DNA of 64,000 bases, from the NCBI GenBank assembly GCA_035624615.1, contig DASPRE010000090.1, positions 682 through 64,681 on the forward strand, written 5' to 3'. The stretch is from Burkholderiales bacterium (GTDB lineage: Bacteria > Pseudomonadota > Gammaproteobacteria > Burkholderiales > JAHFRG01). A program made the translations under genes and the position numbers. The notes beneath the pieces are model-generated. The model saw only the letters and a program-made list of their open reading frames with translations, was not told where the DNA came from and did not search any database. Below are positions 1-33,609 of this stretch, in pieces (within the stretch, counting starts at the first letter, position 1; each line of letters opens with the position of its first letter).

Positions 1-563
1 TCCGGAAAGCGACCGGCAAAGGGATCCTGTTTCTTCGCCCGGTCGTGCAGAACCGACATGGCGGCTTCGGTATTCGCAGCGGTTTCAAGGGAAGGGAAAA
101 ACAGTGATGCGCCGCTTTTCTGAAGTGCAATTAGGGTGGCGATTTGCTCATTCAATTGGCGAAGATCCTTGAGCGGAATATAAAGTGGGCCATATTTGCG
201 TATGAATCGCCGCTCGGCGCTCACATCGGTACGGACGCTGAGTATCAGGTCGGGTCGCGCAGCCGCGTACGCCCGGATTCGGTCACCCAACTGGGTCGCG
301 AACTCTAGCGGTGGGCCACTTTTCGCACCACGTATTACGATTCCCAGATGTTGAGAGCCTTCCATACGGTTGCGAAGTGTCTGGGCACCGCGTACCGCAG
401 GGGAATCGGCTGGTAAGAGTGCTTCGAGATCAGACCTTAGGTTCGCATACAGGTGTACCGTTGCACATCCGGCTGGGACCGTACTCGCGAAAGCCAATAG
501 GAGTACCGCGATGCGCAAGCGGCGGCTGGTCACGAGCTTTTGGAGCCACGCCAAAGCGTTCAC
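1..563 (-). CDS. MMPL/RND-superfamily lipid exporter, N-terminal part (runs off left edge; not in ORF track)
   Basis: Hand translation from GTG at 563, which overlaps the TGA of the upstream gene (GTGA), gives an open frame to base 1: MNALAWLQKLVTSRRLRIAVLLLAFASTVPAGCATVHLYANLRSDLEALLPADSPAVRGAQTLRNRMEGSQHLGIVIRG... An N-terminal TM helix followed by an xDLxxLLPxxSP motif is typical of MMPL proteins. Confidence 0.72.
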   Translation of the reverse strand, partial: MNALAWLQKLVTSRRLRIAVLLLAFASTVPAGCATVHLYANLRSDLEALLPADSPAVRGAQTLRNRMEGSQHLGIVIRGAKSGPPLEFATQLGDRIRAYAAARPDLILSVRTDVSAERRFIRKYGPLYIPLKDLRQLNEQIATLIALQKSGASLFFPSLETAANTEAAMSVLHDRAKKQDPFAGRFP

Positions 564-1981
564 GCGATGTAATCCATGAGTTGCATTGCGGCAACCGTCG
601 CCCGAACCGCGAGCCCGTGAAGCGGCTTGCACGGCAACCCGGGCAGATTCTCTCGGAACCACGCGAGTCCGCTGTCACCCGTGACGACGTCGTTGCGAGC
701 CAACAGGTTGGTAATCCAGCTGCCAGCGGCTACCCCGAGCGCAAGACCGTGCCCGCACCAGCCGACGGCGTGCAGAATATTTGGCGCGTCCGAGCATCTG
801 CCGATGGCCGGCAATCCATCCAGGACATAACCGATCGTGCCGCTCCACGCGTGCGAAATCCGCAGGTCTTCGCGAGCGAGGTCCGGAAAGGTTGCGAAGA
901 GTTTTTGCTGCAGATCTGTCAGGGTGTACGCCGGGATGCTTTCGATGTTGGCGCATTGGGCCGGGCAGGGACGTGGCTTGCCTCCACCGAAAATGAGGCG
1001 ATTATTGCTCGATAACCGAAAGTAATTGAATATTCGGCGCGCCTCCACAACGCCTTCCCGGCCGGCCCATCCAATGTTGGCGAACAAGGTGCGAGGGATC
1101 GGCTCAGTAGCGAGCACCTGTAATTGCAGCGGTATGATGCGGCGACAAAGCCGTCCCAAATTGCGCGCGTAACCGGCCGTGGCAAGGACAACCTGGTCGG
1201 CAATCACTTTCCCGCCGCTTGCCAAGGCCAGGCACATTCTGCCGAAGCCTGCACATCGCGTTAATGCGGAGACGGGGCTGCCTTCAAAAATGCGGGCATT
1301 ACGATCCGTTGCCGCCCTGGCGAGTCCTGCGACCAGCTTACCGGGGTGCAACATCCCGGCAGTGGACAGCCGAAGCGCCGCTGGCCCGCTACTTGCATTG
1401 CCCGGTGTAGGAGGCAACCGTATACATTTCGCCAATTGGTTGTCATTAAGCAACTCGACGCAGAATCCGCGGGCGTTGAGCCAGTCTGCCTGAGCTGATA
1501 GGCGACGACGCCCGGCCGCAGAACGCGCCCAATGAATCTGACCTGTGAAAGTCAGCTCGCAATCGATATGTTCGGTTGCGACAAGGTCGCCCACCATTTT
1601 CACGGCGCGCAGAGTTTCTCGATAGAGTGCCGCCGCACCGACATCGCCCAGCCGTCTGATCAATGCGAGCAGGTCTGGGCCCACTCCGGGTCCCAACATA
1701 CCCGTGTTGCGACCCGAGGCGCCAGAACCTACATACCCGGCCTCCAGCACGACGACCTGAAGCGACGGATAACGTAACAGCAAGTGATATGCGGTCGACA
1801 GCCCGGTGACACCGCCGCCTACAATGGCCACATCGGCACGAATAGTCTCCTTGGGGCAAGTCTCGTACCGTACGCGAGAATTCTCACCCCAAACGGGAGA
1901 TTCGATCATGGCGATCTCCGGGCGAAATCTGGATTTTGAAAATTCCCCGCCGCGACATCGTCCCCTTGTGTCTTCGACCAT
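560..1981 (-). CDS. FAD-dependent oxidoreductase, DAO/PuuB (gamma-glutamylputrescine oxidase)-like
   Basis: DVAIVGGGVTGLSTAYHL Rossmann motif, GASGRNTG, HPGKL, and C-terminal GWCGHGLALG. An alternative ATG start lies at 1909. Confidence 0.85.
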   Translation of the reverse strand: MVEDTRGRCRGGEFSKSRFRPEIAMIESPVWGENSRVRYETCPKETIRADVAIVGGGVTGLSTAYHLLLRYPSLQVVVLEAGYVGSGASGRNTGMLGPGVGPDLLALIRRLGDVGAAALYRETLRAVKMVGDLVATEHIDCELTFTGQIHWARSAAGRRRLSAQADWLNARGFCVELLNDNQLAKCIRLPPTPGNASSGPAALRLSTAGMLHPGKLVAGLARAATDRNARIFEGSPVSALTRCAGFGRMCLALASGGKVIADQVVLATAGYARNLGRLCRRIIPLQLQVLATEPIPRTLFANIGWAGREGVVEARRIFNYFRLSSNNRLIFGGGKPRPCPAQCANIESIPAYTLTDLQQKLFATFPDLAREDLRISHAWSGTIGYVLDGLPAIGRCSDAPNILHAVGWCGHGLALGVAAGSWITNLLARNDVVTGDSGLAWFRENLPGLPCKPLHGLAVRATVAAMQLMDYIA

Positions 1982-1997: not shown

Positions 1998-2933
1998 TCA
2001 TCGCACCTTTACCCGCAGTGATCGCTGGAGCAATGTCAACCGCGCAGGTAGGCGTCCAACAATTTCGCCGTCAAGCTCCAGCAGCACACGGGAAGGACTT
2101 GTGGCCGTTACCTTGCTGGCGCGAAAAAGCTGGGTGCCTGCTTCGTGAATATGGGCCCCGTTATAGATAAATCGGCGCTTGCTGATAAAGTCCAACAAAC
2201 CGAAACCCGACCACAGTGTCACGTCGAATCTTGCATCATCGACCAGGGCATGCGGAGCGACATACATGCCGCCACCGAAATACTGCCCATTGCAAACCGC
2301 GCATGTAGTAACTGAATACTCGTGCGGTGATTCGTCGTCCAAAGTTATTGTGATGATTTGATCCTGGTAGAAGAGCAGGCTCTGTACTGTCGCCAGAGTA
2401 AAAGCCAACGAGCCGCTGAAGCGCTTGAGCGTCGGACTGAGGATGCGGGCGATTTGTCCGCTACAGCCAAACGAGGCAACGTTGAGAAAGACTCTTTCCA
2501 CGGTCTTTCCATCGTGATCGGTGAAAACGGCGTGGCCTACGTCAATGGGCCTGCTCTCGCTACCACCTAATCGTGCACACGCGTCCTCAAGACTAGTTGC
2601 GCCGAGGGTCCTGGCAAAATCGGATCCTGTGCCCTGTGGGACAACGCCTAGCATCGCGGCTGGGGCTACTGCGCGACCCTCCTGAAAGAAGCCGCACAAG
2701 ACCTCGTTTAAGGTTCCGTCCCCGCCCACCGCCACAATCATGTCAAAACTGTCTCGAAGCGCGCGAGCGCTTAGGCTCGTCGCGTGCAATGGTCCGGCGG
2801 TAAAGGCGTGCTCGAAAGCGCCAACCGCGTCTCGAATTAAAACAGCGATTTGCTCCCAACGCCGGCCGGTGGCGCCGGCAGCAGAAGCCGGGTTGACGAT
2901 GACCATTGTGCGCAGTTTGTCTTTGGCGGTCAT
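1998..2933 (-). CDS. Diacylglycerol/sphingosine kinase family protein (YegS-like; VlmJ-like by context)
   Basis: IVNPASAAG, VAVGGDGTLNEV, PQGTGSDFAR, GQYFGGG and LDGE are DAGK-family motifs. Confidence 0.9.
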   Translation of the reverse strand: MTAKDKLRTMVIVNPASAAGATGRRWEQIAVLIRDAVGAFEHAFTAGPLHATSLSARALRDSFDMIVAVGGDGTLNEVLCGFFQEGRAVAPAAMLGVVPQGTGSDFARTLGATSLEDACARLGGSESRPIDVGHAVFTDHDGKTVERVFLNVASFGCSGQIARILSPTLKRFSGSLAFTLATVQSLLFYQDQIITITLDDESPHEYSVTTCAVCNGQYFGGGMYVAPHALVDDARFDVTLWSGFGLLDFISKRRFIYNGAHIHEAGTQLFRASKVTATSPSRVLLELDGEIVGRLPARLTLLQRSLRVKVR

Positions 2934-2939
2934 CGCGAC

Positions 2940-4019
2940 TTACAAGGACCGAGTCAGCAGGAGAAGATCAAAGACAGCGCGCACCGATAAAGGTCTAGCG
3001 GCGAGAAATTCGCGCTCGATTATGTCCGGTGCCCACTTGAGCTTATATTGCGCCTGGCTCTCCGCCGGATAGATAGCGCCGCCATACCGGTAGAGGAGGG
3101 GCACTAGCCAAGCCGCCATGCGGTTCGCACCCGCAAACTCAGGACCTCCCACGACAAAGGGAGTGAAGCCAAAATGCAAATACGGCACTCCCTCGGCCAT
3201 CATGACCTCGATAGCCCGTGCATTGCATAATTCCAGGGCTCCCGGCGGGGCTAAGGGAAGCCGCCGACTCAAATCGTGCAGGTAACCGGGCGCCCGCCCC
3301 CATGAAGGAACGTAGGTAATGAAGGCCACGCATCGGTCGGTCGGATCAATGGCTGCAAAAATCCGCCGACGCACGTCCTCTGGCGAGCCAATCTCGCCAA
3401 TCATGAAATCAAGCTCTCTCTTGCTCTTGGCCCTGAGCCACGCCTGACTGACTGAATGCAGCTCGGCAAACGTCATTTCGTTTCGAGGCCAATCGACGCC
3501 AAACTCAACAACCCTCAGGCCGGATGCCCGGGCACGACTAATCTTGTTGCGCAGCTGCATTTTTTTTGTGCCGCGGAGCGTGAAGTTTTTCAGTGAAAGG
3601 CCGAAGGTAGTGCCGATCTGGTTGATCGAGAATCCGCGATCGCGAAACAGCTGGACCTGCTCGGTACGTAATTGAACGACAAGCACGCGCCGCCGACGCT
3701 TGGATGCGAAGGCAAGCAGGCGGTCAAGCAAAATGCCCCGCTGCGCTTGGGGTGCCTGGACACCACCCAGGGCAATCACATGTCGCCCCTGTTCCCTGAA
3801 GGAAATGAATCCGCTGATTCCCGGTACTGTGAAACGCTGATTCCTCGAAGAAAGCATAAGAAAGCCGGAAGGATGATCAATCAATGCCTCCACAGATTCT
3901 TCGCGTCGCGGCAATTTCATATCACTGGTTGCGGACCGAACATCTGAGCCTTCAGTGTCTTCCATAAGGGTCGTAACCCTGCGGCGAAAATTCAAATTCA
4001 TCGGTGAATTAGTTGCCAT
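2940..4019 (-). CDS. Stand-alone DUF2156 / MprF C-terminal-like aminoacyl-tRNA-dependent transferase (VlmA-like)
   Basis: No TM flippase domain. Motifs FTLRGTKKMQLRNKISRA, ELDFMIGE, GYLHDLSRR, LHFGFTPF and YPAESQAQYKLKWAP match the DUF2156/VlmA family as I recall it. Confidence 0.8.
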   Translation of the reverse strand: MATNSPMNLNFRRRVTTLMEDTEGSDVRSATSDMKLPRREESVEALIDHPSGFLMLSSRNQRFTVPGISGFISFREQGRHVIALGGVQAPQAQRGILLDRLLAFASKRRRRVLVVQLRTEQVQLFRDRGFSINQIGTTFGLSLKNFTLRGTKKMQLRNKISRARASGLRVVEFGVDWPRNEMTFAELHSVSQAWLRAKSKRELDFMIGEIGSPEDVRRRIFAAIDPTDRCVAFITYVPSWGRAPGYLHDLSRRLPLAPPGALELCNARAIEVMMAEGVPYLHFGFTPFVVGGPEFAGANRMAAWLVPLLYRYGGAIYPAESQAQYKLKWAPDIIEREFLAARPLSVRAVFDLLLLTRSL

Positions 4020-5083
4020 TACCGCTGAACTGCACCGACATTAAGCGCTTGGGCCAAAGCAGGGCTTCGACGCACGCGCCAGATTCTGGCATCAACTAGG
4101 TAGTGGTGGAACGCGACCCCCCAGCACAGCCCAAGCACCACGTTTCGGGCCGTTTCACTTGTCAGGGCGACCACGGTGGGGACTCGCAGGCCATACCAGA
4201 CGAGGCCAAGCAACAATCCGCCCGCAAGGTAGGGCACGAGACCCCCCAACGGGCGGCGGCCGCAGCCTGCCTCGTATTGCCAAACTATCCGATGGTATTG
4301 GAGGTTGTGGAAAATGGTGAGCGTGGCGAGGATCGTGAGCAAATGAGAGAGGAGAGCGAAGACCAGCATGTGAAATACGATCACGATGGCCAGCAGCAAA
4401 TGTTTTGGTCCTGGACGAAACGGCTCGTATCGGCCAGAGACGGCGAGTATTACGGCCGCTCCCATTAACAAGCAAAACGCCACATCCAGGATGAATGTTA
4501 GTTGGGGCAGCAGGGCGCTAGGAACGAGTTGCGGCAGCCCGCTGTGGAGATATGGCTCGCCAAGGGAAAAGCGTATAAACGGGTAAAGGCAGCCGGCCCA
4601 AAGCATGAAAGAATCGAGCGACTGACCACGCTGATCGTTCTCGCCGGCCCGCCTTCGGTAGAGCGCGAGAAATCCATAATGCTGCCGCACCAGATGCCAG
4701 TAGGCCCATAGGTAGGCAGCAAGGAGAAAATAGCTGAATAGTGTTCCCTGCAGCCGAAGCGCCGCATCGGTGAGTGCGAAAACGGGACCTATGGCAAGTA
4801 TCAGCCACCACCGGGGTTTTGGAATTCCGGCTCGTGAATTCGTGTCCGGTGCGAGATAGCTGCGCGCGTAAGTGGCCCAAACGTGCGTACCGTCGAACAG
4901 CACCCCCCATAAAAAAACCACAAGGATGACGGGATCGCTCGGGGAAAGATGCGCGCTATCCGGATATGGAGTGGCAACGAAAAAGACGAGCAGAAAAAGC
5001 CCGGCAATGACCGAGCCCTGAAACCAAAGCAAGTCATCGCGCCGCGAAATTATCCATGGGAGCGAAGGGTGATTGCTAACCAT
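4019..5083 (-). CDS. Multi-pass membrane protein with several His motifs, function unknown
   Basis: About 8 hydrophobic segments; DGTHVWATY, YWHLVRQHYG, FHNLQYH, FHHYLVD. Start re-called at ATG 5083, which overlaps the stop of the upstream gene. Confidence 0.7.
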   Translation of the reverse strand: MVSNHPSLPWIISRRDDLLWFQGSVIAGLFLLVFFVATPYPDSAHLSPSDPVILVVFLWGVLFDGTHVWATYARSYLAPDTNSRAGIPKPRWWLILAIGPVFALTDAALRLQGTLFSYFLLAAYLWAYWHLVRQHYGFLALYRRRAGENDQRGQSLDSFMLWAGCLYPFIRFSLGEPYLHSGLPQLVPSALLPQLTFILDVAFCLLMGAAVILAVSGRYEPFRPGPKHLLLAIVIVFHMLVFALLSHLLTILATLTIFHNLQYHRIVWQYEAGCGRRPLGGLVPYLAGGLLLGLVWYGLRVPTVVALTSETARNVVLGLCWGVAFHHYLVDARIWRVRRSPALAQALNVGAVQR

Positions 5084-6293
5084 ATTGAGGCTCCGGACTT
5101 GTTGCGAAAGAGGACCAGATCCGATCTTGAATGAAGGACCCCATAGGTGAGCCAGCGAACGCAAAGGCGCAGCGATGCAGAACGTCGCCGACCCGGCCGC
5201 CGAGGGCAAATAGCAGGCTCATCCAGTGCGAATTGCGGATAATCGCGGCATTGTAGCGGCGCCGCTCCCGTTCGTAGGCGGCAAAGCACGCGTCGATCTC
5301 GGCGGCCGCGGCGTTGCACTCGAGGGCAGTGCCCAGATGGCGGGCGAGCGCTGCGGCGTCCTCTATCGCCATCGTCATTCCCTGAGCCATCACTGGATTG
5401 ATGACATGGATGGCGTCGCCGAGCAACACGGCCCCGTGCGCCGAATAACTCGGCGCATGTGTGCGCCACAGCTTATACAAGTAAGCCCCCTCGGCAACCG
5501 GCCGGCGGCCCGCTAGCAACCGGGAGCGTCCCTCGATGTGCGAGTATTTCTTTTCTATTGAACCGGAACGAAACAAGTGTTCATGCTCCGAACGAATTAT
5601 CGCCGCGAGGCCGAGACGGTTGACGCCCGGAACGACCAGCACGCCGCCGTCGGGATGCAATTCAGTGCGCAGTACATCGGGCATGCCGACCGGGCGGTCG
5701 ATGTCCACAATGAATAAACTGTGGTTATAGGGAGCACGGCGGACCTCAATCCCTAGTCCTGCTCGGACGACAGACTTCGCGCCATCAGCGCCAATTACTA
5801 CGCGGCAGCTCAGTTGCTGCTCATTTCCATCGCTCCCTTTGATCAAGACACCCCGCACACGGTCGCCTTCCTTGATCAGAGACAACAGGCGTGTGCCATA
5901 TCGGACCTCAACACGCCCCGTTGCTACCGCCGACTCAACAAAAGAGCACTCGATTTTGGGATGTGGCAGCACGAGATATGGATCGGTGGCCTCAGGCAAA
6001 GCGAGTGGAACGTCCAACAATAGGCCATCGCGGTAATGGAAAAATTGCATCGTGTTTATCGGGCGCGCCCCCGCTGCGTAGCATCGGTCCAATGCGCCCC
6101 ATCGCTTGAGCAATGCAGTCACCGGGGGAAGCAGGCTTTCACCGCGGTTGATGTTGCCTGCCGCTAGGTGCCTTTCGATAAGCAGCACGCGAATTGCGCG
6201 GTTGTGGACAAGAGCCAACGCGCAGGCCGTGCCGCCGACACCGGCACCGACAATGATGACATCGTAATCGAATGGCTGAGGTGCGCTGCTCAT
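5076..6293 (-). CDS. Single-component FAD-dependent monooxygenase (group A, UbiH/squalene-epoxidase-like)
   Basis: IIVGAGVGG, VIGADGAKSVVR (DG motif) and LLGDAIHVINPVMAQGM (GD motif). Confidence 0.88.
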   Translation of the reverse strand: MSSAPQPFDYDVIIVGAGVGGTACALALVHNRAIRVLLIERHLAAGNINRGESLLPPVTALLKRWGALDRCYAAGARPINTMQFFHYRDGLLLDVPLALPEATDPYLVLPHPKIECSFVESAVATGRVEVRYGTRLLSLIKEGDRVRGVLIKGSDGNEQQLSCRVVIGADGAKSVVRAGLGIEVRRAPYNHSLFIVDIDRPVGMPDVLRTELHPDGGVLVVPGVNRLGLAAIIRSEHEHLFRSGSIEKKYSHIEGRSRLLAGRRPVAEGAYLYKLWRTHAPSYSAHGAVLLGDAIHVINPVMAQGMTMAIEDAAALARHLGTALECNAAAAEIDACFAAYERERRRYNAAIIRNSHWMSLLFALGGRVGDVLHRCAFAFAGSPMGSFIQDRIWSSFATSPEPQYG

Positions 6294-6303
6294 TAGTCGC
6301 CTC

Positions 6304-6717
6304 CTAATGCCCCGGTTGGCTGCCAGGCTCGAAGGGCAGTGCCCAGGGTTTCGAAAAGTTGCCCAGCAAACCGCGATCTCCGGACAGGTGGATCGGCACT
6401 GCTACCATCGCCCAGTCCGGGCCTCCGGCGGCGAGTGCCCAGAGTGCGACCGCGGCACCCACGACAACATAGTTATGGGTCAGGTTGTAGAGCACGTAAT
6501 AGATGCGTGGAATTTGTTTGCCGCCGGAACTGCGAAACGCCAGTGCTCCTGGCAGATAGCCAACCAAATCGATAAGCGCAAAGGCGGCGATAAACCGGCC
6601 CCAGGAGATCTCATCAAAGTGCGCAACCACCAGAGCGGTGAAAATTACGACTATGGCAACGTGTTCGGCTCGCATCCACCAGGAAGTGCCTTGCTTCGGA
6701 ACGAAGGTTGTGCTCAT
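6304..6717 (-). CDS. Small 4-TM membrane protein, DUF4260-like; resembles the VlmO membrane hydrazine synthase
   Basis: IDLVGYLPGA, YYVLYNLTH, PIHLSGDRGLLGNFSKP and FEP. Candidate metal ligands are D50, H81, H110 and D114. Confidence 0.7.
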   Translation of the reverse strand: MSTTFVPKQGTSWWMRAEHVAIVVIFTALVVAHFDEISWGRFIAAFALIDLVGYLPGALAFRSSGGKQIPRIYYVLYNLTHNYVVVGAAVALWALAAGGPDWAMVAVPIHLSGDRGLLGNFSKPWALPFEPGSQPGH

Positions 6718-6726
6718 TGCTGTTCC

Positions 6727-9207
6727 TCAGGCTGCGCCCATGACAGTGGTCAGATCTTGGTCGGGCGAGTATTCGCGCACAGCCCGTGGTAAAGCGAGAT
6801 GGAAACCGTGGCGATCGGCGAGCGCGAGCATGTGATCCACTTCTGCCAAGGACACGTTGTAGCCAACACCAAAATTACGAGTCTCACCCGACAGGGCTAA
6901 AAGAATTGTTTCCGCCAAACAGGCCAGCGTGACGCCGGGCGGCAAGTTATTGAGATTTCCGACTCCAAACTCGGTATTGGGATCCGGCAACGCGACCTGA
7001 CCGCCATCAAAAACAAAAAGATCATGTCGGGCGCGAATTGCGGCAGACGTGTCGGGCGGCTTGGCCACGTCGCAGATGATCGTGCCTGGCGCGAGCGATG
7101 CGGCTTCAAGCGCCGGGCGAGCCGCGGCTGTAGCAGTCAAAATGATTTGGCAGTCTTTAAGTACCGAAATGTCGTTAGCAATTTCGACCGCCGGCAGTCG
7201 AGTTCTTAGCTCATCGGCCAGGGTCTGCAGCGCTTTTACTGGCCGGCTCGGGTTGCCAACCAGAATCAGGCGCCGGAGTCGCTCGCGCGCAAGCAAGCGC
7301 GCACAAAGGCTGCCAACCGACCCGCGGGCGCCAACCACGGCTACGCAAGCCTGGCTGAGGCGCAAATGCCGCGCATCCGCCGCGGCCAGGATTGCTTTTA
7401 CCGCCATTCCCGCGGTAAGCGCATTGCCGGTGGTAATTGCAGGTCCCCGTCCGCATGCTGAAAGGCCGCGTCGGCTATAGGGGGCGGTATGCCCGCCGAG
7501 GCCGACAATGCGTGCCCCTAGGCTTGCCGCCAGATCAACCGCCCTATTTATATCCTGGGCGGTCTCGCGTATTCCGCGCAACGCCATTTCCTCTGGCAGG
7601 ATTGGAAGCGCTAAGATGAGTCCGTCAACGCTCTCGCCAGTAGCCGAATGGATGGTAGGGGCACGCATTACGACTCCGGGAGCCAATGCGCTGGTATAGG
7701 CGCACACGCGCCGCAGAACCGCATCATTGAACCCGTGAAGCGACGGGTTGGTTACCTCAAGATCCTCAGGGCGTGTGTAGTGACCCAGCCACGCGTACTT
7801 TGGCTTCGGAGCATCTTTGGGTAACCGTGTAGGTAATAGCGGGGCAGGGCCCGGATACGCGGTGTGGACTGCGAGGGGAAAGCCGTCGAACGCGCCGATT
7901 GCCCGCAGGATGGTACCGGTCGTGTCTTGCTGCAGCGCCTGGAAAACTCCATCGATCGCTTCGAGTGCCATCTCCAATTCGTGCTGCGAGATGATGAGAG
8001 GAGGTGTTATCCGAATAACATCGGAATTCCCGAGCGTTGGAAGGACCAGGACAGATCCTAATTGCGCTACCGTCGCCGCCACTGCATAGCTGTATAAACC
8101 CTGATTCGCGAGAAACGACAGGAATGTGCCCTGATGTTCTGGAGGGGAGCGCAACTCGATTGCGCTCATCAGCCCGCGACCACGCACGGCAGCTATAATC
8201 TGCGGATAACGTGTGGCCATCTGATTCAGGCGCTGCAACAGAATCCCGCCCCGCCGACTCACGTCTGCGCAAAACCCGTCGCTCGTCAGTATTTCCAGTA
8301 CCTTCAAACCGACTCGGCAGGCAACGTTATTGTTGGCAAACGTGGAGGAGTGTAGAAGCGAAAACTGCTCGTCCCAGAACTCCAGCGAGCTGAAACAGGC
8401 GCTGAGCGGGAATAAGCCCCCACCAAGCGCCTTTCCAAGCAACAGCACGTCTGGCTCGATCCCATCGTGTTCACAGGCGAAAAGTCGTCCAGTCCTGCCT
8501 AGCCCAGTTTGAATTTCGTCCAGGACCAGCGCTACGCCGTGCTGTGAACACAAACTGCGGACTCGCTTAAGATAACCAGGTGGTGGAAGATGAACCCCGC
8601 GCTCCCCCTGGATGGGCTCAAGAAAAAAGGCGGCAATTTTATTCCCGTCGCGGCTTAATCGGTCCTCCAATGCATCCGTGTCACCGAACTCAATAAACTC
8701 AACACCGGCCGGCGATGGGCCAAATGGTTCTGCGTATTGCCGCTGTCCGGTAAGCGCGAGGGCTCCCATGGTCTTGCCATGAAAGGACCCGGTCGCAGCC
8801 AGAATGATGGATCGGCCTGCACGTCTTCGGACCAGCTTGATCGCCGCCTCAACGGCTTCCGCACCCGAAGTTGTAATTATTCCGCGGGACAGATTTCCCG
8901 GGGCCAGTTCGGTTAGCGCATGGGCGAGTGCTTCAGCGTGACGGGCTCGATAAGGCTGAATCATGGCCGGTTCGCCACTGTCCAGCGCGGCACGCGCCGT
9001 CTCTATTATTTGGGACGCATTGTGTCCAAAAGCCAGCGCCCCGTATTGAGCATAGCAGTCCAGGAAATGTCTGCCGTCCGCATCGATGAGCCAGACCCCA
9101 TCGGCATGCTCCCACATACGGTCCATTCGTAGCAGCGCGAGCAGCCGGCGAAGTGTCGGATTGAGTCGACTGAGGTTTGTAGCCTCACTTTGCGCTCGAT
9201 CAAGCAT
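6727..9207 (-). CDS. Fusion of a class III PLP aminotransferase and an acyl-ACP (thioester) reductase-like domain
   Basis: N-half: SGAEAVEAA, FHGKT, EPIQGERG, DEIQTGLGRTG, GKALGGG (PLP Lys). C-half: LGARIVGLGG, TTGNALTA, VAVVGARGSVG, CDVAKPPD, TLACLAETILLAL, matching the cyanobacterial AAR pattern including the catalytic Cys. RBS GAGG upstream. Confidence 0.85.
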   Translation of the reverse strand: MLDRAQSEATNLSRLNPTLRRLLALLRMDRMWEHADGVWLIDADGRHFLDCYAQYGALAFGHNASQIIETARAALDSGEPAMIQPYRARHAEALAHALTELAPGNLSRGIITTSGAEAVEAAIKLVRRRAGRSIILAATGSFHGKTMGALALTGQRQYAEPFGPSPAGVEFIEFGDTDALEDRLSRDGNKIAAFFLEPIQGERGVHLPPPGYLKRVRSLCSQHGVALVLDEIQTGLGRTGRLFACEHDGIEPDVLLLGKALGGGLFPLSACFSSLEFWDEQFSLLHSSTFANNNVACRVGLKVLEILTSDGFCADVSRRGGILLQRLNQMATRYPQIIAAVRGRGLMSAIELRSPPEHQGTFLSFLANQGLYSYAVAATVAQLGSVLVLPTLGNSDVIRITPPLIISQHELEMALEAIDGVFQALQQDTTGTILRAIGAFDGFPLAVHTAYPGPAPLLPTRLPKDAPKPKYAWLGHYTRPEDLEVTNPSLHGFNDAVLRRVCAYTSALAPGVVMRAPTIHSATGESVDGLILALPILPEEMALRGIRETAQDINRAVDLAASLGARIVGLGGHTAPYSRRGLSACGRGPAITTGNALTAGMAVKAILAAADARHLRLSQACVAVVGARGSVGSLCARLLARERLRRLILVGNPSRPVKALQTLADELRTRLPAVEIANDISVLKDCQIILTATAAARPALEAASLAPGTIICDVAKPPDTSAAIRARHDLFVFDGGQVALPDPNTEFGVGNLNNLPPGVTLACLAETILLALSGETRNFGVGYNVSLAEVDHMLALADRHGFHLALPRAVREYSPDQDLTTVMGAA

Positions 9208-9527
9208 GATAGCTCGCCTCGTTAACCTCTCCCCGGTAAATGCGGTCGATTGCGACAGAGGAGATTTTGTCCAGCAATGTGTAGGCGCGGATGCGGTAGC
9301 CGACGAATATGGTTAATGCCCGCCAGCAAGGCGAAAACGCGTGTGTGAAAGATGGAGATTTCAGAACCGAACTGAGCCGTTGCCAAAAACCACGAGCAAC
9401 TGAATGGCGTTTGAAAAAAATGAAAATACATGCGCCTCCTAATATTGTGGCCTTTGCCGCCACCAGCGATTGCGCTGGGTTTGGCCGTTACTCTGTCACA
9501 TGGCGCATTACGGATGGGTAACGATTC

Positions 9528-9584
9528 GGTTACAGATTGCTTACTTACTTGCGTACCACCACGACTTGTAAGCGATCTGTAACC
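9528..9584. promoter_or_regulatory. 17-bp inverted repeat in the divergent promoter region of the cluster
   Basis: GGTTACAGATTGCTTAC (9528-9544) and GTAAGCGATCTGTAACC (9568-9584) are 16/17 complementary, with a 23-nt spacer. Confidence 0.6.
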
Positions 9585-9668
9585 AATATGTTAGCGATTG
9601 GTATGTCGCGGTTTGGTACCGTGGGCGTCGCGAATAGAACATCCCGATGGACTAAATGCAAAATCAAG

Positions 9669-11006
9669 ATGGCTGTTAGCGCAAGCCGAATTCAGAACGC
9701 GGTCGAGTTACTGGAATATGTAGCCGTCAGTGCCGGCATGATGTTCGGGGCTTCTTGTTTTCTGGTCCTTGGATTTATCGCCGAGGCCAATTCCGTCCGC
9801 AACATAGCCCTGGCGATCACCATTGCGGCAACCTTATGTATATCTACGGCTCTTGCCGTTGGCGAAATGGCCAGCCGCTTTCCATCGGCACCCGGAATTC
9901 GCACCTACATTAAATGTGCGTTTGGGGATGAGATCAGCCTCTTTTTTACCTACCTGTCGCTGTTAGTCGCCATTCTTTTCGCGGGAATTGAGATCAAGGT
10001 GTTTTGGGACGCAGTGTTGCCGGGAACTTCCCCGCATGCACGCGCCGTAGCTACATTCGCTATGATTGGCGTTCTGGGCTACCTGAACGTAACAGGACGC
10101 GAACTGCCGCGCCTTATTCAGGTGCTGATTTGCTCAGCGCTTGTGGCCGGGACTACTGCCGTATCGTGGGTTGCCATGACCCGAATAGACGTGGCGCTTG
10201 CCTACGCGCCAACCGGCCCGCAGGCATCATTCATATCCGCCATCGGCATTGCCTTCTTTGTTTTTATCGGTTTCGAATGGGTGACGCCAGCTGCCAAGTC
10301 GCCCGAGGCGTCGCGACGACTCATACCAATAAGCATGATTATTGCAATTGCGACACTTGCGATTACGTACCTGTTGTTTGCGGTGGCTCTGAATTTGGCC
10401 TTGCCGAGCGCCGATTTGCTGCAATCCAAAATACCTCACGTGTCGCTCGGCGGGCGGCTGTTCCCCGATCATGGAGCGCTGATAATGCAATGCCTGTCCG
10501 TTCTGGCATTGGTAACCATACTAAATGCGGGAGTCATTGGCGCGTCCCGTCTGCTTTATTTCCTGGGCCGGGACCGATCATTCTTTAGGTGGCTAAACGA
10601 GCGCTTGTCGATCCTCAATTCTAAAGGCGTTTCTTCCGCGAGCGTTGTGCTGCTGTGCGGTCTGTGCCTGCTTTCCTCACTATTGGAGATTTATCTGGAC
10701 TCTACCCAAAACATCGCTGAGCTGTGCGCCGGCCTCTACTGCTTGGTCTACTGCGCGTTCGTTGCATCACATATTCGGCTGCGCAAACAACCCGTAGATA
10801 GGGTTTTATTTCGCAGCCCTTTGCCCATCGGCCTTTATTATGTACTAGCCGCCATCTTGTTAATGCTTGGCATTGCAACGTTTCTTGGTTCAGTAGACCA
10901 CATTTCAACTAGGCTCCCGTTGCTCACGCTGATTGTCTTTCTGTCCGGTGCCGCTGCTTTTTACGTGGCCAAGTCAAGGCGTCTAGCAACATACCGAAAG
11001 ACGTGA
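9669..11006 (+). CDS. APC-superfamily amino acid/polyamine permease
   Basis: About 12 TMs; GMMFG, GEMASRFPSAPG, FFVFIGFEW, GASRLLYFLGRD. Start re-called at ATG 9669 (the ORF track extends to 9537). Confidence 0.85.
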   Translation: MAVSASRIQNAVELLEYVAVSAGMMFGASCFLVLGFIAEANSVRNIALAITIAATLCISTALAVGEMASRFPSAPGIRTYIKCAFGDEISLFFTYLSLLVAILFAGIEIKVFWDAVLPGTSPHARAVATFAMIGVLGYLNVTGRELPRLIQVLICSALVAGTTAVSWVAMTRIDVALAYAPTGPQASFISAIGIAFFVFIGFEWVTPAAKSPEASRRLIPISMIIAIATLAITYLLFAVALNLALPSADLLQSKIPHVSLGGRLFPDHGALIMQCLSVLALVTILNAGVIGASRLLYFLGRDRSFFRWLNERLSILNSKGVSSASVVLLCGLCLLSSLLEIYLDSTQNIAELCAGLYCLVYCAFVASHIRLRKQPVDRVLFRSPLPIGLYYVLAAILLMLGIATFLGSVDHISTRLPLLTLIVFLSGAAAFYVAKSRRLATYRKT

Positions 11007-11018
11007 AAAAACATTGCC

Positions 11019-11387
11019 ATGTCCGCAAAATCATCAGCGCTGGCTTTGCTAGAAACACTTGAAAAATTTCGCTCGAAAGTAAACGGCGATTCTCGTTTGA
11101 CGAATATTTTGCGAGGTTGGGAGCCAGTAATTATGCTCGAGGCGCTGAACACGCAGTGGAAGCGATATCTTCCCGTTCACGAATGTCACATTACCGAGAT
11201 CACATCGGACTTCAAGGATGCTTCGCATGTTGTCCGATTGCGATCCTCGGAGGAAACATTGATTGCGATTTTTGAAGGTAGATACAATCCAGTGGAGGCA
11301 TTTTTGAACGGCGAATTAGAATTATTTGCGACCGACAAGGACCAGCTTAAGCTAGACGCCATCAGCCTGCTGCTGTGGGGCATATAA
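11019..11387 (+). CDS. SCP2 sterol/lipid-carrier domain protein
   Basis: 122 aa; the C-terminal VRLRSSEETLIAIFEGRYNPVEAFLNGELEL pattern is typical of SCP2 domains. Confidence 0.7.
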   Translation: MSAKSSALALLETLEKFRSKVNGDSRLTNILRGWEPVIMLEALNTQWKRYLPVHECHITEITSDFKDASHVVRLRSSEETLIAIFEGRYNPVEAFLNGELELFATDKDQLKLDAISLLLWGI

Positions 11388-11421
11388 ATCGTACCATTTA
11401 TCATTGAATCGGGAACCCATA

Positions 11422-12369
11422 ATGAACTCCAGCAATTTAAACCGGCCGGCAGGCGCCGAGGCCCAGCCCAATCGAGCGACACCGACATATAGCGTTCAAA
11501 ATTGGGGCAACGGCAGGTGGGATATTCAGCAGTGGCTCGAACGAACCGCATGGCGAACGTTAAAGGACACAGAATATGGGCGTCCCAGGATCGAGAAGGG
11601 CATCTTGCCCGAGCTATTCAGCGATGGGCTGCTGCGACAGGTTTGTTTGATCGATATCGCCACGTTTATTGAAGCAGAGCGGACATCATTTGAGGCAGTG
11701 GCCGGCCTGCTGCGCTGTGCTCCGGATGAGAACAGTAAAGTTTATCTCGGTACCCAGGTAATGGACGAGTGCCGGCATTTTGAGGTGTTTTGCCGGCGCA
11801 TGGCTGATTTTGGCATTTCTCCCGAAGAGCGCAACAAGCTTGTTAAACGTTTTGCGACTCCCGCGATCAGGAAATTCTACGACTTGGTACTCGAGCAGGT
11901 GGATAAACGAGACTTTATTGCAGGCTGCTTGGCGCAGAACATAGTGATGGAAGGCATGTCCTATCCGGTTTATCGATATGAGATCAAATACTGGTCAAGG
12001 ATCGACTCGTCTTTAAGTCAGATCATTCGTGGTGCTTTTGCCGATGAAGTACACCATGTTTCTTATGGAGAAGCGATCATCAAGCATCACATAAAGGGAC
12101 TTGATCCATCCAAGAAATCGAAGCTACAGGCTCTAATAAGCGAATTTTCCGGATTGATGACGGAGGCGTTTGAGCAGGTAATCAGTCACTATATTGGCTT
12201 GTACCAGGAATGTGCGAACGAGCATATGTCACTGATGGCCAATATCGAAATTTTTCCGGGAAGGCTTATATCTTCGGTTTCGGAAGAAGATCAGGTCCGC
12301 CTGCTTCTTGGAGAGATAAGGCGTGAACATGCTCAACGTGCAGCTCGAATCGGGCTTTCCGCAAGTTGA
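11422..12369 (+). CDS. Ferritin-like non-heme diiron enzyme, VlmB-like
   Basis: Two E...ExxH repeats: FIEAE / TQVMDECRH and VMEG / ADEVHH. ATG at 11422 with an upstream GGGAA (the track starts at TTG 11404). Confidence 0.8.
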   Translation: MNSSNLNRPAGAEAQPNRATPTYSVQNWGNGRWDIQQWLERTAWRTLKDTEYGRPRIEKGILPELFSDGLLRQVCLIDIATFIEAERTSFEAVAGLLRCAPDENSKVYLGTQVMDECRHFEVFCRRMADFGISPEERNKLVKRFATPAIRKFYDLVLEQVDKRDFIAGCLAQNIVMEGMSYPVYRYEIKYWSRIDSSLSQIIRGAFADEVHHVSYGEAIIKHHIKGLDPSKKSKLQALISEFSGLMTEAFEQVISHYIGLYQECANEHMSLMANIEIFPGRLISSVSEEDQVRLLLGEIRREHAQRAARIGLSAS

Positions 12370-12510
12370 TCCGGGAAGGTTTCTCGTCTGGCCCTCGGCG
12401 CATGGACTCGGCGAGCAATATTGCGGGTCACAAGGTGCCTCGTCACATAGATTCGTAATTACTTTGGGCTGGCCGACTGCCGGGCAAACACGTTTTCAGT
12501 AATGGCATCC

Positions 12511-33372: not shown

Positions 33373-33609
33373 TCAGTTAAGGTGGGTCTTGATGTATTCT
33401 ATGGCTTGCTGCACTGTGGTGATTTTCTCCGCCTCTTCGTCGGGGATTTCGCATTCAAATTCCTCCTCCAGCGCCATAACCAGCTCCACCGTATCCAGCG
33501 AATCTGCACCAAGATCGTCTACGAATGATGATTCGCTTTTGACTTCAGCTTCGTTAACACCCAGTTGTTCGGCAACAATTTTTTTGACGCGCTGCTCTAT
33601 ATTTTCCAT
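33373..33609 (-). CDS. acpP: Acyl carrier protein
   Basis: [20 protein letters not shown]. Confidence 0.98.

What the first reader, a model, noticed from the sequence alone, without database searches (positions are those of the whole stretch)
6727..9207. Aminotransferase-acyl-ACP reductase fusion: a one-protein route from fatty acyl thioester to alkylamine
The N-terminal class III transaminase has an intact PLP Lys. It is joined through a Pro-rich linker to a domain carrying cyanobacterial AAR hallmarks (TTGNxxTA, VAVVGAxGxxG, ACLAE catalytic Cys). A comparable transaminase/thioester-reductase architecture is proposed for TamH in tambjamine biosynthesis. Here it is the first gene of the operon, so it probably supplies the amine that is N-hydroxylated. 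It could also be a useful fatty-amine biocatalyst.
Basis: partly seen in the sequence, partly recalled or inferred. Interest (0 to 1): 0.8.

Follow-up and report, generated by a model that had tools for sequence, protein, structure and literature searches.

The report
TamH-type reductase-transaminase feeding azoxy-like operon
This gene really encodes one protein that joins an aldehyde-making thioester reductase to an amine-making transaminase, a design already proven in the pigment enzymes TamH and PigE; what is less ordinary is that here it heads a conserved operon resembling the Streptomyces pathways that build nitrogen-nitrogen (azoxy) bonds.

Summary
ORF 6727-9207 (minus strand, 826 aa) has three parts:
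- an N-terminal class-III aminotransferase with PLP Lys K259;
- a Pro-rich linker;
- a C-terminal acyl-ACP-reductase (AAR)-like domain with TTGN, GARGSVG and Cys C763.

All of these residues are invariant in 18 homologs. The protein aligns colinearly with the characterised PtTamH (29% identity, E 3e-62). Its reductase domain matches the PigE N-domain (2e-33) and cyanobacterial AAR (4e-16).

The architecture is therefore a known kind. TamH, PigE and the PP_2782/Thermincola fusions have already been proposed or used as fatty-amine biocatalysts.

The operon and its divergent arm encode:
- a VlmA-like tRNA-dependent transferase;
- a VlmO-like membrane protein carrying the D/H/H/D set;
- a VlmB homolog (its only PDB hit);
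- a VlmJ-like kinase;
- a flavin monooxygenase whose closest solved relative is the N-hydroxylase PqsL.

This gene set recurs in 6-7 of 10 sampled relatives from several phyla. Streptomyces azoxy-type clusters share the VlmO/A/B core but use a stand-alone transaminase plus an aldehyde-dehydrogenase-family enzyme.

Substrate, chain length, the N-hydroxylation step and the product are inferred, not shown. Verdict: a new member of a known enzyme kind in an unstudied pathway context.

The parts
6727..9207 (-). Whole ORF (826 aa): transaminase-thioester reductase (TA-TR) fusion and first gene of the operon.
7951..9117 (-). Class-III (fold type I) PLP aminotransferase domain, residues 31-419.
   Evidence: Pfam Aminotran_3, E 1.8e-93. 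Foldseek top hits are the PigE TA domain 4ppm (38% identity) and YgjG.
8431..8433 (-). Codon of K259, the Schiff-base lysine in LLLGKALGGG.
   Evidence: Invariant in 18 homologs. Aligned to 'LAKSLGGG' of PtTamH. Codon checked.
7792..7899 (-). Inter-domain linker, residues 437-472, with 8 Pro in 36 residues.
   Evidence: Block-mean pLDDT drops to 58-59 over residues 441-460 in the AF2 model.
6781..7797 (-). AAR/PigE-N-like thioester reductase domain, residues about 471-809.
   Evidence: PigE N-domain 6e-46 and TIGR04058 1e-21. PDB 4ppm 2e-33 and AAR 6jzq 4e-16.
7312..7332 (-). GARGSVG (626-632), the nucleotide-binding GxxGxxG of the reductase Rossmann fold.
   Evidence: Invariant glycines. Aligned to GATGDIG of AAR and GAAGNIG of TamH.
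6919..6921 (-). Codon of C763 (ACLAE), the predicted acyl-accepting catalytic cysteine.
   Evidence: Aligned to AAR C294 and PigE C296 (PMC8341465) and to TamH 'YACCGE'. Invariant.
6304..6717 (-). 137-aa membrane protein, a VlmO-like candidate hydrazine synthase.
   Evidence: D50/H81/H110/D114 are invariant and match the essential VlmO residues D51/H82/H110/D114 (PMC11705231). Its profile hits 62 of 301 Streptomyces genomes at 1e-35 to 1e-50, next to VlmA-like and VlmB-like genes.
5076..6293 (-). Group-A flavin monooxygenase and candidate amine N-hydroxylase.
   Evidence: Pfam FAD_binding_3. Best solved relative is PqsL 2x3n/6sw1, E 2.3e-21. PqsL is the 2-aminobenzoylacetate N-hydroxylase (PMC6165268).
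4019..5083 (-). 354-aa His-rich polytopic membrane protein of unknown function; a core member of the cluster.
   Evidence: No Pfam match. 384 homologs, none with a functional name: every name given by a source is 'hypothetical protein'. Confident model (pLDDT 86.6) without any PDB fold match.
2940..4019 (-). VlmA-like aminoacyl-tRNA-dependent transferase (stand-alone LPG_synthase_C / DUF2156).
   Evidence: Pfam 1.8e-47. Scores 210-250 bits to the VlmA-like genes of Streptomyces azoxy-type loci, against about 50 bits to MprF/LpiA structures.
1998..2933 (-). VlmJ-like lipid/diacylglycerol-type kinase.
   Evidence: DAGK_cat + YegS_C. This is the same family pair that PMC9379638 gives for VlmJ.
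560..1981 (-). DAO-family FAD oxidoreductase; a core member of the cluster.
   Evidence: Pfam DAO 1.1e-62. Present in all four aligned clusters and in 2 of 12 Streptomyces loci.
3..662 (-). N-terminus of an MMPL/RND-type exporter, cut by the window edge.
   Evidence: Open-ended ORF. An 815-aa MMPL gene sits at this position in L081 and L114.
9208..9536 (.). Divergent intergenic region between the fusion gene and the permease arm.
9537..11006 (+). Amino-acid/amine permease on the divergent arm.
   Evidence: Pfam AA_permease_2. Conserved beside the fusion gene in L083, L087 and L112.
11019..11387 (+). 122-aa SCP2-like protein, a possible lipid carrier.
   Evidence: Weak SCP2 match, E 0.007. Homologs lie directly after the fusion gene in L083, L087 and L112.
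11404..12369 (+). VlmB-like ferritin-fold diiron oxidase.
   Evidence: The only PDB hit is 6d9f/8wvr 'Putative VlmB homolog', E 7.5e-22 over nearly full length. Homologs sit next to the VlmO-like gene in Streptomyces.

Best explanation
P0001 is a TamH-type bifunctional enzyme.

Proposed reaction (inferred from homology to AAR, PigE and TamH):
1. The C-terminal AAR-like domain takes a fatty acyl group from a phosphopantetheine thioester onto Cys763. The carrier is most likely housekeeping acyl-ACP.
2. The domain reduces the acyl-enzyme with NAD(P)H to the fatty aldehyde.
3. The aldehyde passes to the N-terminal class-III transaminase. PLP on Lys259 and an amino-acid donor such as L-Glu or L-Ala convert it to a primary alkylamine.

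Proposed fate of the amine (inferred from gene context):
1. The amine is N-oxygenated; the candidate is the PqsL-like flavoprotein.
2. The VlmA-like transferase O-aminoacylates it using an aminoacyl-tRNA.
3. The VlmO-like membrane enzyme rearranges the ester to a hydrazine.
4. The VlmB-like diiron enzyme oxidises the hydrazine towards an azo or azoxy group.
5. The kinase, the DAO flavoprotein and the His-rich membrane protein tailor the product, and the MMPL pump exports it.

Shown here: the domain architecture, the catalytic residues, the homologies and the conserved gene neighbourhood. Not shown: any activity, the carrier, the chain length or the product.
For: Domains and residues:
- (details in the observation check).
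- One colinear BLASTP alignment with the characterised PtTamH covers residues 142-804 against 207-922, at 29% identity and E 3e-62. The Lys and Cys are aligned (the sequence was read from the SI of PMC9594044).
- The AF2 model has pLDDT 81 and pTM 0.80, and its TA domain is closest to PigE and YgjG.

Context in the window:
- The operon is tight, and the fusion is its first gene.
- The VlmO-like D/H/H/D set is present (PMC11705231).
- A VlmB homolog is the only PDB hit of the diiron protein.
- The VlmA-like gene scores far higher against Streptomyces cluster genes than against MprF.
- The monooxygenase is PqsL-like.

Conservation:
- The same gene set was found around 6-7 of 10 sampled relatives of 53-89% identity.
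- Orthology was confirmed by phmmer.

Comparison with Streptomyces:
- In azoxy-type loci the VlmO/VlmA/VlmB core sits next to a stand-alone class-III transaminase.
- In 7 of 12 loci there is also an aldehyde-dehydrogenase-family gene.
- This is the pair proposed to make the fatty amine of azodyrecins (PMC9379638; bioRxiv 10.1101/2023.10.13.562208).
- The same two chemical steps are therefore expected at this point of the pathway.

Hints of a lipid substrate:
- an SCP2-like neighbour, an MMPL exporter and a lipid-type kinase;
- FA_hydroxylase or CDP-alcohol transferase genes in sister clusters.
Against: - There is no biochemical evidence.
- Curated equivalog cut-offs are not reached: TIGR04058 scores 78 bits against 450, and the PigE model 536 against 850.
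- Identity to TamH is only 29%.
- The cluster has no dedicated ANL-ACP partner like TamA. The only ACP seen in the window is the housekeeping acpP, about 24 kb away.
- The operon has no VlmH/VlmR-type N-hydroxylase. One sister cluster (L083) lacks the PqsL-like gene.
- Three of 10 relatives are solitary genes in unrelated neighbourhoods.
- The TA domain is not orthologous to the Streptomyces azoxy-cluster transaminases (tree).
Confidence: 0.65

Rival explanations
1. The fusion makes a fatty amine, but no N-N bond is formed. The VlmA-like transferase would acylate the amine nitrogen directly, giving an N-aminoacyl alkylamide. This cationic or zwitterionic envelope lipid would then be phosphorylated and exported.
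For: - AzdA can form such amides when N-hydroxylation is blocked (bioRxiv 10.1101/2023.10.13.562208).
- The neighbourhood looks lipid-like: kinase, MMPL, SCP2-like protein, and CDP-alcohol transferases in sister clusters.
- There is no VlmH/VlmR homolog.
Against: - VlmO-like and VlmB-like genes with intact metal ligands are core members of every cluster examined.
- A PqsL-like N-hydroxylase candidate is present.
Confidence: 0.15
2. The enzyme has a PigE-like role. It would reduce and transaminate a functionalised (keto or branched) acyl thioester, and the resulting amino-carbonyl product would cyclise to a pyrroline- or piperideine-type alkaloid, as in prodigiosin or koreenceine pathways.
For: The best NCBIfam hit is PigE, and the best PDB hits for both domains are PigE. 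PP_2782-type fusions sit in FAS/PKS alkaloid clusters (PMC10829540).
Against: - The Pfam/NCBIfam domain calls for the operon and the divergent arm show no thiamine-dependent (PigD-like), ketosynthase/PKS or carrier-protein gene; PigB-type oxidases were not searched for specifically.
- The domain order is reversed relative to PigE.
- The PigE model score is below its cut-off.
Confidence: 0.07
3. The enzyme works in the catabolic or reverse direction. It would deaminate an imported alkylamine to the aldehyde, and the C-domain would oxidise the aldehyde to an acyl thioester. The permease and the DAO oxidase would form part of an amine-utilisation locus.
For: The amino-acid/amine permease and the DAO amine-oxidase-like gene are conserved neighbours. 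Both half-reactions are chemically reversible (general knowledge).
Against: - The conserved VlmA/VlmO/VlmB-like biosynthetic core and the MMPL exporter argue for biosynthesis.
- All characterised relatives (AAR, PigE, TamH) act reductively (PMC9594044, PMC8341465).
Confidence: 0.05
4. The C-terminal domain is not an acyl-thioester reductase. It would be an amino-acid dehydrogenase or a GluTR-like enzyme acting on an amino acid or an aminoacyl-tRNA. The protein would then belong to ornithine/putrescine-type amino-acid metabolism, as automatic annotation suggests.
For: - JGI names relatives 'aminotransferase/predicted amino acid dehydrogenase'.
- There are weak GluTR Rossmann matches, about 1e-7.
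- The TA domain resembles putrescine and acetylornithine aminotransferases.
Against: - AAR and the PigE N-domain match over the full domain length, including the catalytic Cys, at far better E-values than GluTR, which matches only the Rossmann part.
- The context is not amino-acid metabolism.
Confidence: 0.05

Closest known systems
PtTamH (tambjamine YP1 pathway, Pseudoalteromonas tunicata; PMC9594044)
   Same: - Same domain order: an N-terminal class-III transaminase, a linker of about 30-50 aa, and a C-terminal AAR-like thioester reductase.
- One colinear alignment covers both domains, with the PLP Lys, the GxxGxxG motif and the catalytic Cys aligned.
- PtTamH has been shown to convert C12 acyl-ACP to C12 amine with NADH and L-Glu.
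   Different: - Identity is only 29%.
- TamH is 941 aa and carries two insertions (in the TA domain and in the Rossmann domain) that this protein lacks.
- TamH works with a dedicated ANL-ACP partner (TamA) in a bipyrrole pigment cluster. Here there is no such partner, and the neighbours are VlmA/VlmO/VlmB-like.
PigE (prodigiosin MAP branch, Serratia; PDB 4ppm; PMC8341465)
   Same: - Both domains are homologous: the TA domain is 38% identical by Foldseek and the reductase domain matches at 2e-33.
- The catalytic Cys is conserved.
- The logic is the same: thioester to aldehyde to amine.
   Different: - The domain order is reversed (reductase first).
- The substrate is a keto-acyl thioester that cyclises.
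- The NCBIfam PigE model is not reached (536 bits against 850).
PP_2782 (P. putida KT2440) and the Thermaerobacter/Thermincola 'natural transaminase fusions' (PMC10829540)
   Same: They are TA-AAR fusions with the same domain order. Their transaminase activity on aliphatic aldehydes with L-Glu, L-Gln or L-Ala has been measured, and they were proposed as fatty-acid-to-amine biocatalysts.
   Different: - They lie in FAS/PKS or prodiginine-like clusters.
- Reductase activity was not shown for them.
- They were not compared directly here, because no sequence was held. The Bacillota fusions in L001, L002 and L022 are only 33-36% identical to this protein.
Cyanobacterial acyl-ACP reductase (SeAAR, PDB 6jzq/6jzy; TIGR04058)
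   Same: The C-domain aligns over the whole AAR length, including TTGN, GxxGxxG and the acyl-accepting Cys294.
   Different: - AAR is a stand-alone enzyme that hands its aldehyde to the diiron deformylating oxygenase.
- Here the domain is fused to a transaminase.
- The score (78 bits) is far below the equivalog cut-off (450).
Ady2/Ady4 and AzdP/AzdQ of the azodyrecin clusters (PMC9379638; bioRxiv 10.1101/2023.10.13.562208)
   Same: They have the same proposed pathway role: recruiting a fatty acyl group and converting it through the aldehyde to the alkylamine that enters VlmH/VlmA/VlmO/VlmB-type N-N chemistry.
   Different: - They are two separate proteins.
- The conserved candidate beside the transaminase in the Streptomyces loci sampled here is of the aldehyde-dehydrogenase family, not AAR-like. 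The papers call Ady2 a putative dehydrogenase and AzdP a putative alcohol-forming fatty acyl reductase.
- No Streptomyces ORF matched residues 440-826.
- The transaminases form a separate clade.

Membership tests
TamH-type TA-TR fusion (class-III transaminase + AAR-like thioester reductase) | N-terminal fold-type-I class-III aminotransferase domain with a Schiff-base lysine | tested here: met
   Aminotran_3, E 1.8e-93. K259 is invariant and aligned to the TamH lysine motif.
TamH-type TA-TR fusion (class-III transaminase + AAR-like thioester reductase) | C-terminal AAR-like domain with GxxGxxG and a catalytic Cys | tested here: met
   GARGSVG lies at 626-632, and C763 aligns with AAR C294, PigE C296 and the TamH 'ACCGE' motif.
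TamH-type TA-TR fusion (class-III transaminase + AAR-like thioester reductase) | Colinear homology to PtTamH across both domains | tested here: met
   A single HSP covers 142-804 against 207-922, at 29% identity and E 3e-62. The TamH sequence was machine-read from a PDF supplement, so a few residues may be wrong.
TamH-type TA-TR fusion (class-III transaminase + AAR-like thioester reductase) | Conversion of acyl-ACP to a primary amine with NAD(P)H and an amino donor | not testable with these tools
   This needs an enzyme assay.
TamH-type TA-TR fusion (class-III transaminase + AAR-like thioester reductase) | Dedicated acyl-activating ANL-ACP partner (TamA) in the cluster; a feature of the tam system rather than of the fold | tested here: not met
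   Neither the operon nor the divergent arm has an AMP-binding or carrier-protein gene. The only ACP motif in the window is the housekeeping acpP near 33513.
Cyanobacterial long-chain acyl-ACP reductase (TIGR04058 equivalog) | Score above the curated equivalog cut-off | tested here: not met
   77.6 bits against a cut-off of 449.7. The domain is a homolog, not an equivalog.
PigE (NF053554 equivalog) | Score above the cut-off and reductase-then-transaminase domain order | tested here: not met
   536 bits against 850. The two matched stretches are in swapped order.
vlm/ady/azd-type aliphatic azoxy gene cluster (context of the fusion) | VlmA-type stand-alone LPG_synthase_C aminoacyl-tRNA transferase | tested here: met
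   Pfam 1.8e-47. E-values of 1e-63 to 1e-75 to the genes next to VlmO-like genes in Streptomyces.
vlm/ady/azd-type aliphatic azoxy gene cluster (context of the fusion) | VlmO-type small membrane protein with the essential Asp/His/His/Asp set | tested here: met
   D50/H81/H110/D114 are invariant, against VlmO D51/H82/H110/D114 (PMC11705231). The Streptomyces homologs are strong and lie in VlmA/VlmB/VlmJ/VlmK-type neighbourhoods. VlmO itself was not aligned, because no sequence was held.
vlm/ady/azd-type aliphatic azoxy gene cluster (context of the fusion) | VlmB-type diiron oxidase | tested here: met
   The only PDB hit is 6d9f/8wvr 'Putative VlmB homolog', E 7.5e-22.
vlm/ady/azd-type aliphatic azoxy gene cluster (context of the fusion) | VlmH/VlmR two-component flavin N-hydroxylase | tested here: not met
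   The operon and its arm have no acyl-CoA-dehydrogenase-like or flavin-reductase gene. A single-component PqsL-like monooxygenase is present instead.
vlm/ady/azd-type aliphatic azoxy gene cluster (context of the fusion) | VlmJ kinase together with a VlmK (MmgE/PrpD) eliminating enzyme | tested here: inconclusive
   A VlmJ-like kinase is present. No MmgE/PrpD gene is present in the operon, whereas the Streptomyces locus L103 has both.
vlm/ady/azd-type aliphatic azoxy gene cluster (context of the fusion) | Product containing an N-N (hydrazine, azo or azoxy) bond | not testable with these tools
   This needs metabolite analysis.

The most novel reading that the evidence does not exclude
The close subfamily of this TamH-type fusion is the entry enzyme of a widespread, unstudied pathway. 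The pathway would occur in Gram-negative and uncultured soil lineages, including Burkholderiales, Acidobacteriota, Methylomirabilota, Gemmataceae and delta-proteobacterial MAGs.

It would build an N-N-bonded (hydrazine or azoxy) conjugate of a fatty alkylamine and an amino acid. A lipid-type kinase or CDP-alcohol transferases would then add a phosphate or head group, and an MMPL pump would export the product. The product would be a new class of envelope lipid rather than a Streptomyces-style antibiotic.

The DAO flavoprotein and the fold-orphan His-rich membrane protein would carry out chemistry that has no counterpart in the valanimycin pathway.
Probability: 0.2. Interest if true: 0.85.

Novelty: new member of a known kind. 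Interest (0 to 1): 0.42.

Why it matters
As an enzyme this adds little. One-protein routes from thioester to amine are already characterised (TamH, PigE) and have been marketed as biocatalysts.

The value is as a marker. This subfamily has hundreds of members at more than 50% identity, and it flags a conserved VlmA/VlmO/VlmB-like gene set outside the actinobacteria. Neither the reviews read here (up to November 2026) nor the literature searches mention such a set.

Two things would follow if the pathway does make N-N bonds on a fatty amine:
- the known range of azoxy/hydrazine biochemistry would extend to Gram-negative and uncultured phyla;
- a self-contained amine-supply module would become available that draws on housekeeping acyl-ACP and needs no dedicated loading enzyme.

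Tried and rejected
Apart from six distant full-length fusions (L001-L004, L006, L022), it returned only aminotransferase-domain matches, and none of the six has Vlm-like neighbours. Named genomes for close relatives were therefore not obtained.
2. A Foldseek search with the whole model was swamped by transaminase hits. The structural match of the reductase domain to AAR was not shown separately and rests on sequence.
3. Pfam DUF4260, reported for Ady6, did not hit the 137-aa protein even at E 10. The VlmO link was made through the conserved residues and the Streptomyces neighbourhoods instead.
4. The His-rich membrane protein has no Pfam match, no named homolog and no PDB fold match. Its role is unresolved.
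5. My first idea was a plain amino-lipid pathway. I demoted it after the VlmO and VlmB evidence.
6. I tested whether the TA domain descends from the Streptomyces azoxy-cluster transaminases. The tree rejects this: the two form separate clades with full support.
As a result the following could not be examined:
   - phyletic distribution in the order;
   - the rest of this genome (VlmH/VlmR, VlmK, SerRS paralog, second copy);
   - expression.


Full report
**Observation**

The window has one uninterrupted 826-codon ORF on the minus strand at 6727-9207.

- Pfam places Aminotran_3 on residues 31-419 (E 1.8e-93). A Rossmann match (Shikimate_DH, Semialdhyde_dh) covers 615-734.
- NCBIfam's best whole-protein hit is the PigE model. 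It matches in two stretches, but in swapped order and below the curated cut-off (536 against 850 bits).
- The last 386 residues, searched alone, match the PigE N-terminal reductase part (6e-46) and TIGR04058, the cyanobacterial long-chain acyl-ACP reductase, over its full length (1e-21; 78 bits against a cut-off of 450).
- In the PDB the same piece hits PigE 4ppm (2e-33) and AAR 6jzq/6jzu (4e-16). The Cys of 'ACLAE' lies on the acyl-accepting Cys of AAR ('ACFAE', C294) and PigE ('GCMAE') (PMC8341465).
The linker 437-472 has 8 Pro in 36 residues.
- In 18 full-length homologs of 49-85% identity, K259, D230/E231/Q233, the TTG, the Rossmann glycines and C763 are invariant.
- An AlphaFold2 model built on that alignment is confident (pLDDT 81, pTM 0.80), with the block-mean pLDDT dropping to 58-59 over residues 441-460 of the linker. 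Its best structural matches are the transaminase domains of PigE (38% identity) and YgjG.

**What it is**

The architecture is that of PtTamH.

- In the tambjamine pathway PtTamH was shown to take a C12 acyl group from the ACP of TamA. It reduces the group with NADH through an AAR-like C-terminal domain (putative catalytic C887) and transaminates the aldehyde with L-Glu (putative catalytic K340) (PMC9594044).
- I read the recombinant PtTamH sequence from that paper's supplement (it is machine-read, so a few residues may be wrong) and compared it with P0001.
- One colinear alignment covers both domains: 142-804 against 207-922, 29% identity, E 3e-62. The PLP lysine, the GxxGxxG motif and the Cys are aligned.
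- TamH has two insertions that this protein lacks.
- PigE carries the same two domains in reverse order and was shown to reduce and transaminate a thioester (PMC8341465).
- PP_2782 of P. putida and three thermophile homologs are further TA-AAR fusions with measured transaminase activity. They were explicitly proposed for converting fatty acids to amines (PMC10829540).

The enzyme design and the biocatalyst idea are therefore already in the literature.

**The family**

A search of the metagenome protein collection gave at least 759 relatives. The top 120 are of similar length (720-858 aa) and 51-100% identical, and nearly all match over about 94-100% of the query. Sources annotate them only as 'aminotransferase class III' or 'aminotransferase/predicted amino acid dehydrogenase'. 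Named sources include Burkholderiales, Acidobacteria and Deltaproteobacteria MAGs.

**Context in the window**

The fusion is the first gene of a tightly packed minus-strand operon, with gaps of 9, 10, -8, -1, 6 and 16 bp. After it come:

- a 137-aa membrane protein;
- a group-A flavin monooxygenase;
- a 354-aa His-rich membrane protein without any Pfam match;
- a stand-alone LPG_synthase_C (DUF2156) protein;
- a DAGK/YegS-type kinase;
- a DAO-family flavoprotein;
- the start of an MMPL exporter, cut by the window edge.

The divergent arm encodes a permease, a weakly SCP2-like protein and a ferritin-like diiron protein.

A first-stage note on the same stretch suggested a valanimycin-like system. 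I tested that idea in four ways.

1. The diiron protein's only PDB hit is 6d9f/8wvr, 'Putative VlmB homolog' (7.5e-22, nearly full length).
2. The 137-aa protein and four orthologs have invariant D50, H81, H110 and D114. The essential residues reported for the hydrazine-forming membrane enzyme VlmO are D51, H82, H110 and D114 (PMC11705231).
3. A profile of these five proteins hit 62 of 301 Streptomyces genomes at 1e-35 to 1e-50. In twelve 20-kb stretches fetched around such hits, the neighbours were:
   - VlmA-like genes (1e-63 to 1e-75 to the window protein);
   - VlmB-like diiron genes;
   - a class-III transaminase;
   - a DAGK-type kinase in six loci;
   - an MmgE/PrpD (VlmK-type) gene, a ketosynthase and a SARP regulator in the one locus examined in detail.
   
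   These are the gene sets described for valanimycin, KA57-A, elaiomycin and azodyrecin clusters (PMC9379638).
4. The flavin monooxygenase's closest solved relative is PqsL (2x3n/6sw1, 2.3e-21). PqsL N-hydroxylates a primary amine (PMC6165268).

The context therefore fits a pathway that needs an alkylamine, N-oxygenates it, couples it to an aminoacyl-tRNA and forms an N-N bond.

**Conservation of the context**

I fetched the surroundings of eleven relatives, which make ten distinct sampled relatives.

- The same gene set surrounds the fusion in L081/L082 (Burkholderiales MAG, 85% identity), L114/L115 (89%, also syntenic in the flanks), L083, L087, L088, L111 and L112. L113 has it partially before the contig ends.
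- phmmer shows a core present in all four clusters compared: the fusion, the VlmO-like gene, the His-rich membrane protein, the VlmA-like gene, DAO and the VlmB-like gene.
- The PqsL-like gene is in 3 of 4 clusters, the kinase in 2 of 4, and the SCP2-like gene plus permease in 3 of 4.
- Some clusters add CDP-alcohol phosphatidyltransferase, CTP_transf_1, P450 or radical-SAM genes.
- Three relatives are solitary genes in planctomycete-like neighbourhoods. In the tree they nest inside the family.
- The distant fusions from Bacillota and others (33-36% identity) have no Vlm-like neighbours.

**How the amine module compares with Streptomyces**

- In the Streptomyces loci the window protein matches only through residues of about 20-430. 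Nothing there matches the reductase domain.
- Families conserved in those loci include an aldehyde-dehydrogenase-family protein (7 of 12 loci) and ketosynthases.
- This fits the published proposal that Ady2/AzdP plus the transaminase Ady4/AzdQ make the fatty amine.
- A maximum-likelihood tree of transaminase domains puts the P0001 family (100/100 support) and the Streptomyces azoxy-cluster transaminases (100/100) in separate clades. The Streptomyces clade groups with ArgD-type enzymes.
- The two cluster types therefore share the VlmO/A/B core but recruited their amine-forming steps independently. That both kinds of cluster keep an aldehyde-forming and a transaminating function at this point is the best contextual evidence for the role of the fusion.

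**Mechanism, and what is inferred**

- Inferred from homology: acyl transfer onto C763, hydride transfer from NAD(P)H, channelling of the aldehyde and PLP-dependent amination.
- Inferred from context: the fatty nature of the substrate (SCP2-like protein, MMPL, lipid-type kinase, FA_hydroxylase in sister clusters) and the fate of the amine.
- Open points:
  - the cofactor preference;
  - the chain length;
  - the amino donor;
  - the true N-oxygenase, since there is no VlmH/VlmR and L083 lacks the PqsL-like gene;
  - the roles of DAO and the His-rich membrane protein.
- The His-rich membrane protein gave a confident model (pLDDT 86.6) with no PDB fold match. Its 384 homologs carry no functional name; every name given by a source is 'hypothetical protein'.

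**Known or new**

The enzyme is a new member of a known kind. Reviews up to November 2026 list VlmO/VlmB homologs only from Streptomyces and Kitasatospora. A literature search for azoxy or fatty-amine work in Burkholderiales, or with DUF2156, found nothing relevant. The non-actinobacterial cluster therefore appears unstudied, but that is a finding about the cluster rather than about this gene.

Earlier follow-up notes from this scan on related stretches reached the same reading. I treated them as leads and re-derived the evidence here.

**Limits**

The rest of this genome, the phyletic distribution and expression could not be examined.

Noticed in passing
window 4019-5083 (-): This 354-aa polytopic membrane protein has invariant His clusters (WHLVRQHYGF, FHNLQYHRIVW, AFHHY). 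It is a core member of every cluster examined and is 57-88% identical across phyla. It has no Pfam family, no functionally named homolog and no PDB fold match despite a confident model. The ORF listing extends it to a TTG at 5209, but the homologs support the ATG at 5083.
   Followed up: partly
window 5076-6293 (-): The closest solved relative of this group-A flavin monooxygenase is PqsL, which N-hydroxylates a primary amine using free reduced flavin. It may replace the VlmH/VlmR pair. It is absent from the sister cluster L083.
   Followed up: partly
window 12370-12510, compared with L081:6008-6571 and L114:6216-6773: The closest relatives (85-89% identity, syntenic flanks) carry a 185-187-aa FA_hydroxylase (PF04116) gene between the VlmB-like gene and the NAPRTase gene. 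This window has only about 140 bp there, so the gene is missing in this strain.
   Followed up: no
L083:18917-21279 and L087:6022-9874: Sister clusters add CDP-alcohol phosphatidyltransferase, CTP_transf_1 (CdsA-like), P450, a soluble desaturase-like gene or a B12 radical-SAM gene. This hints that the product receives a phospholipid-style head group in some lineages.
   Followed up: no
window 560-1981 (-): The DAO-family flavoprotein is a core cluster member and also occurs in 2 of 12 Streptomyces VlmO loci (L104, L107). From memory, a DAO-type enzyme cleaves the carrier C-N bond in the Spb hydrazine pathway. An analogous release step here would make the fatty amine a recyclable carrier. This was not tested.
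   Followed up: no
L084, L085, L086: Three family members of 53-56% identity are solitary genes among PSCyt/PSD1/DUF1501-type neighbours, which look planctomycete-like. They nest inside the cluster-associated clade, so the rest of the pathway may lie elsewhere in those genomes or may have been lost.
   Followed up: partly
L099-L110 (Streptomyces genomes G294, G062 and others): About one in five sampled Streptomyces genomes (62 of 301) carries a VlmO-like gene at E below 1e-35. This exceeds the 5.7% of actinobacteria reported to have VlmA/VlmH pairs.
   Followed up: no
window 3-662 (-): The MMPL exporter gene that ends the operon is cut by the window edge, and the contig extends only 681 bp further. 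The cluster is therefore incomplete in this assembly.
   Followed up: no
window about 33513 (-): A canonical acpP (…[12 protein letters not shown]…) lies about 24 kb from the fusion gene. It is the only carrier protein seen in the window.
   Followed up: no
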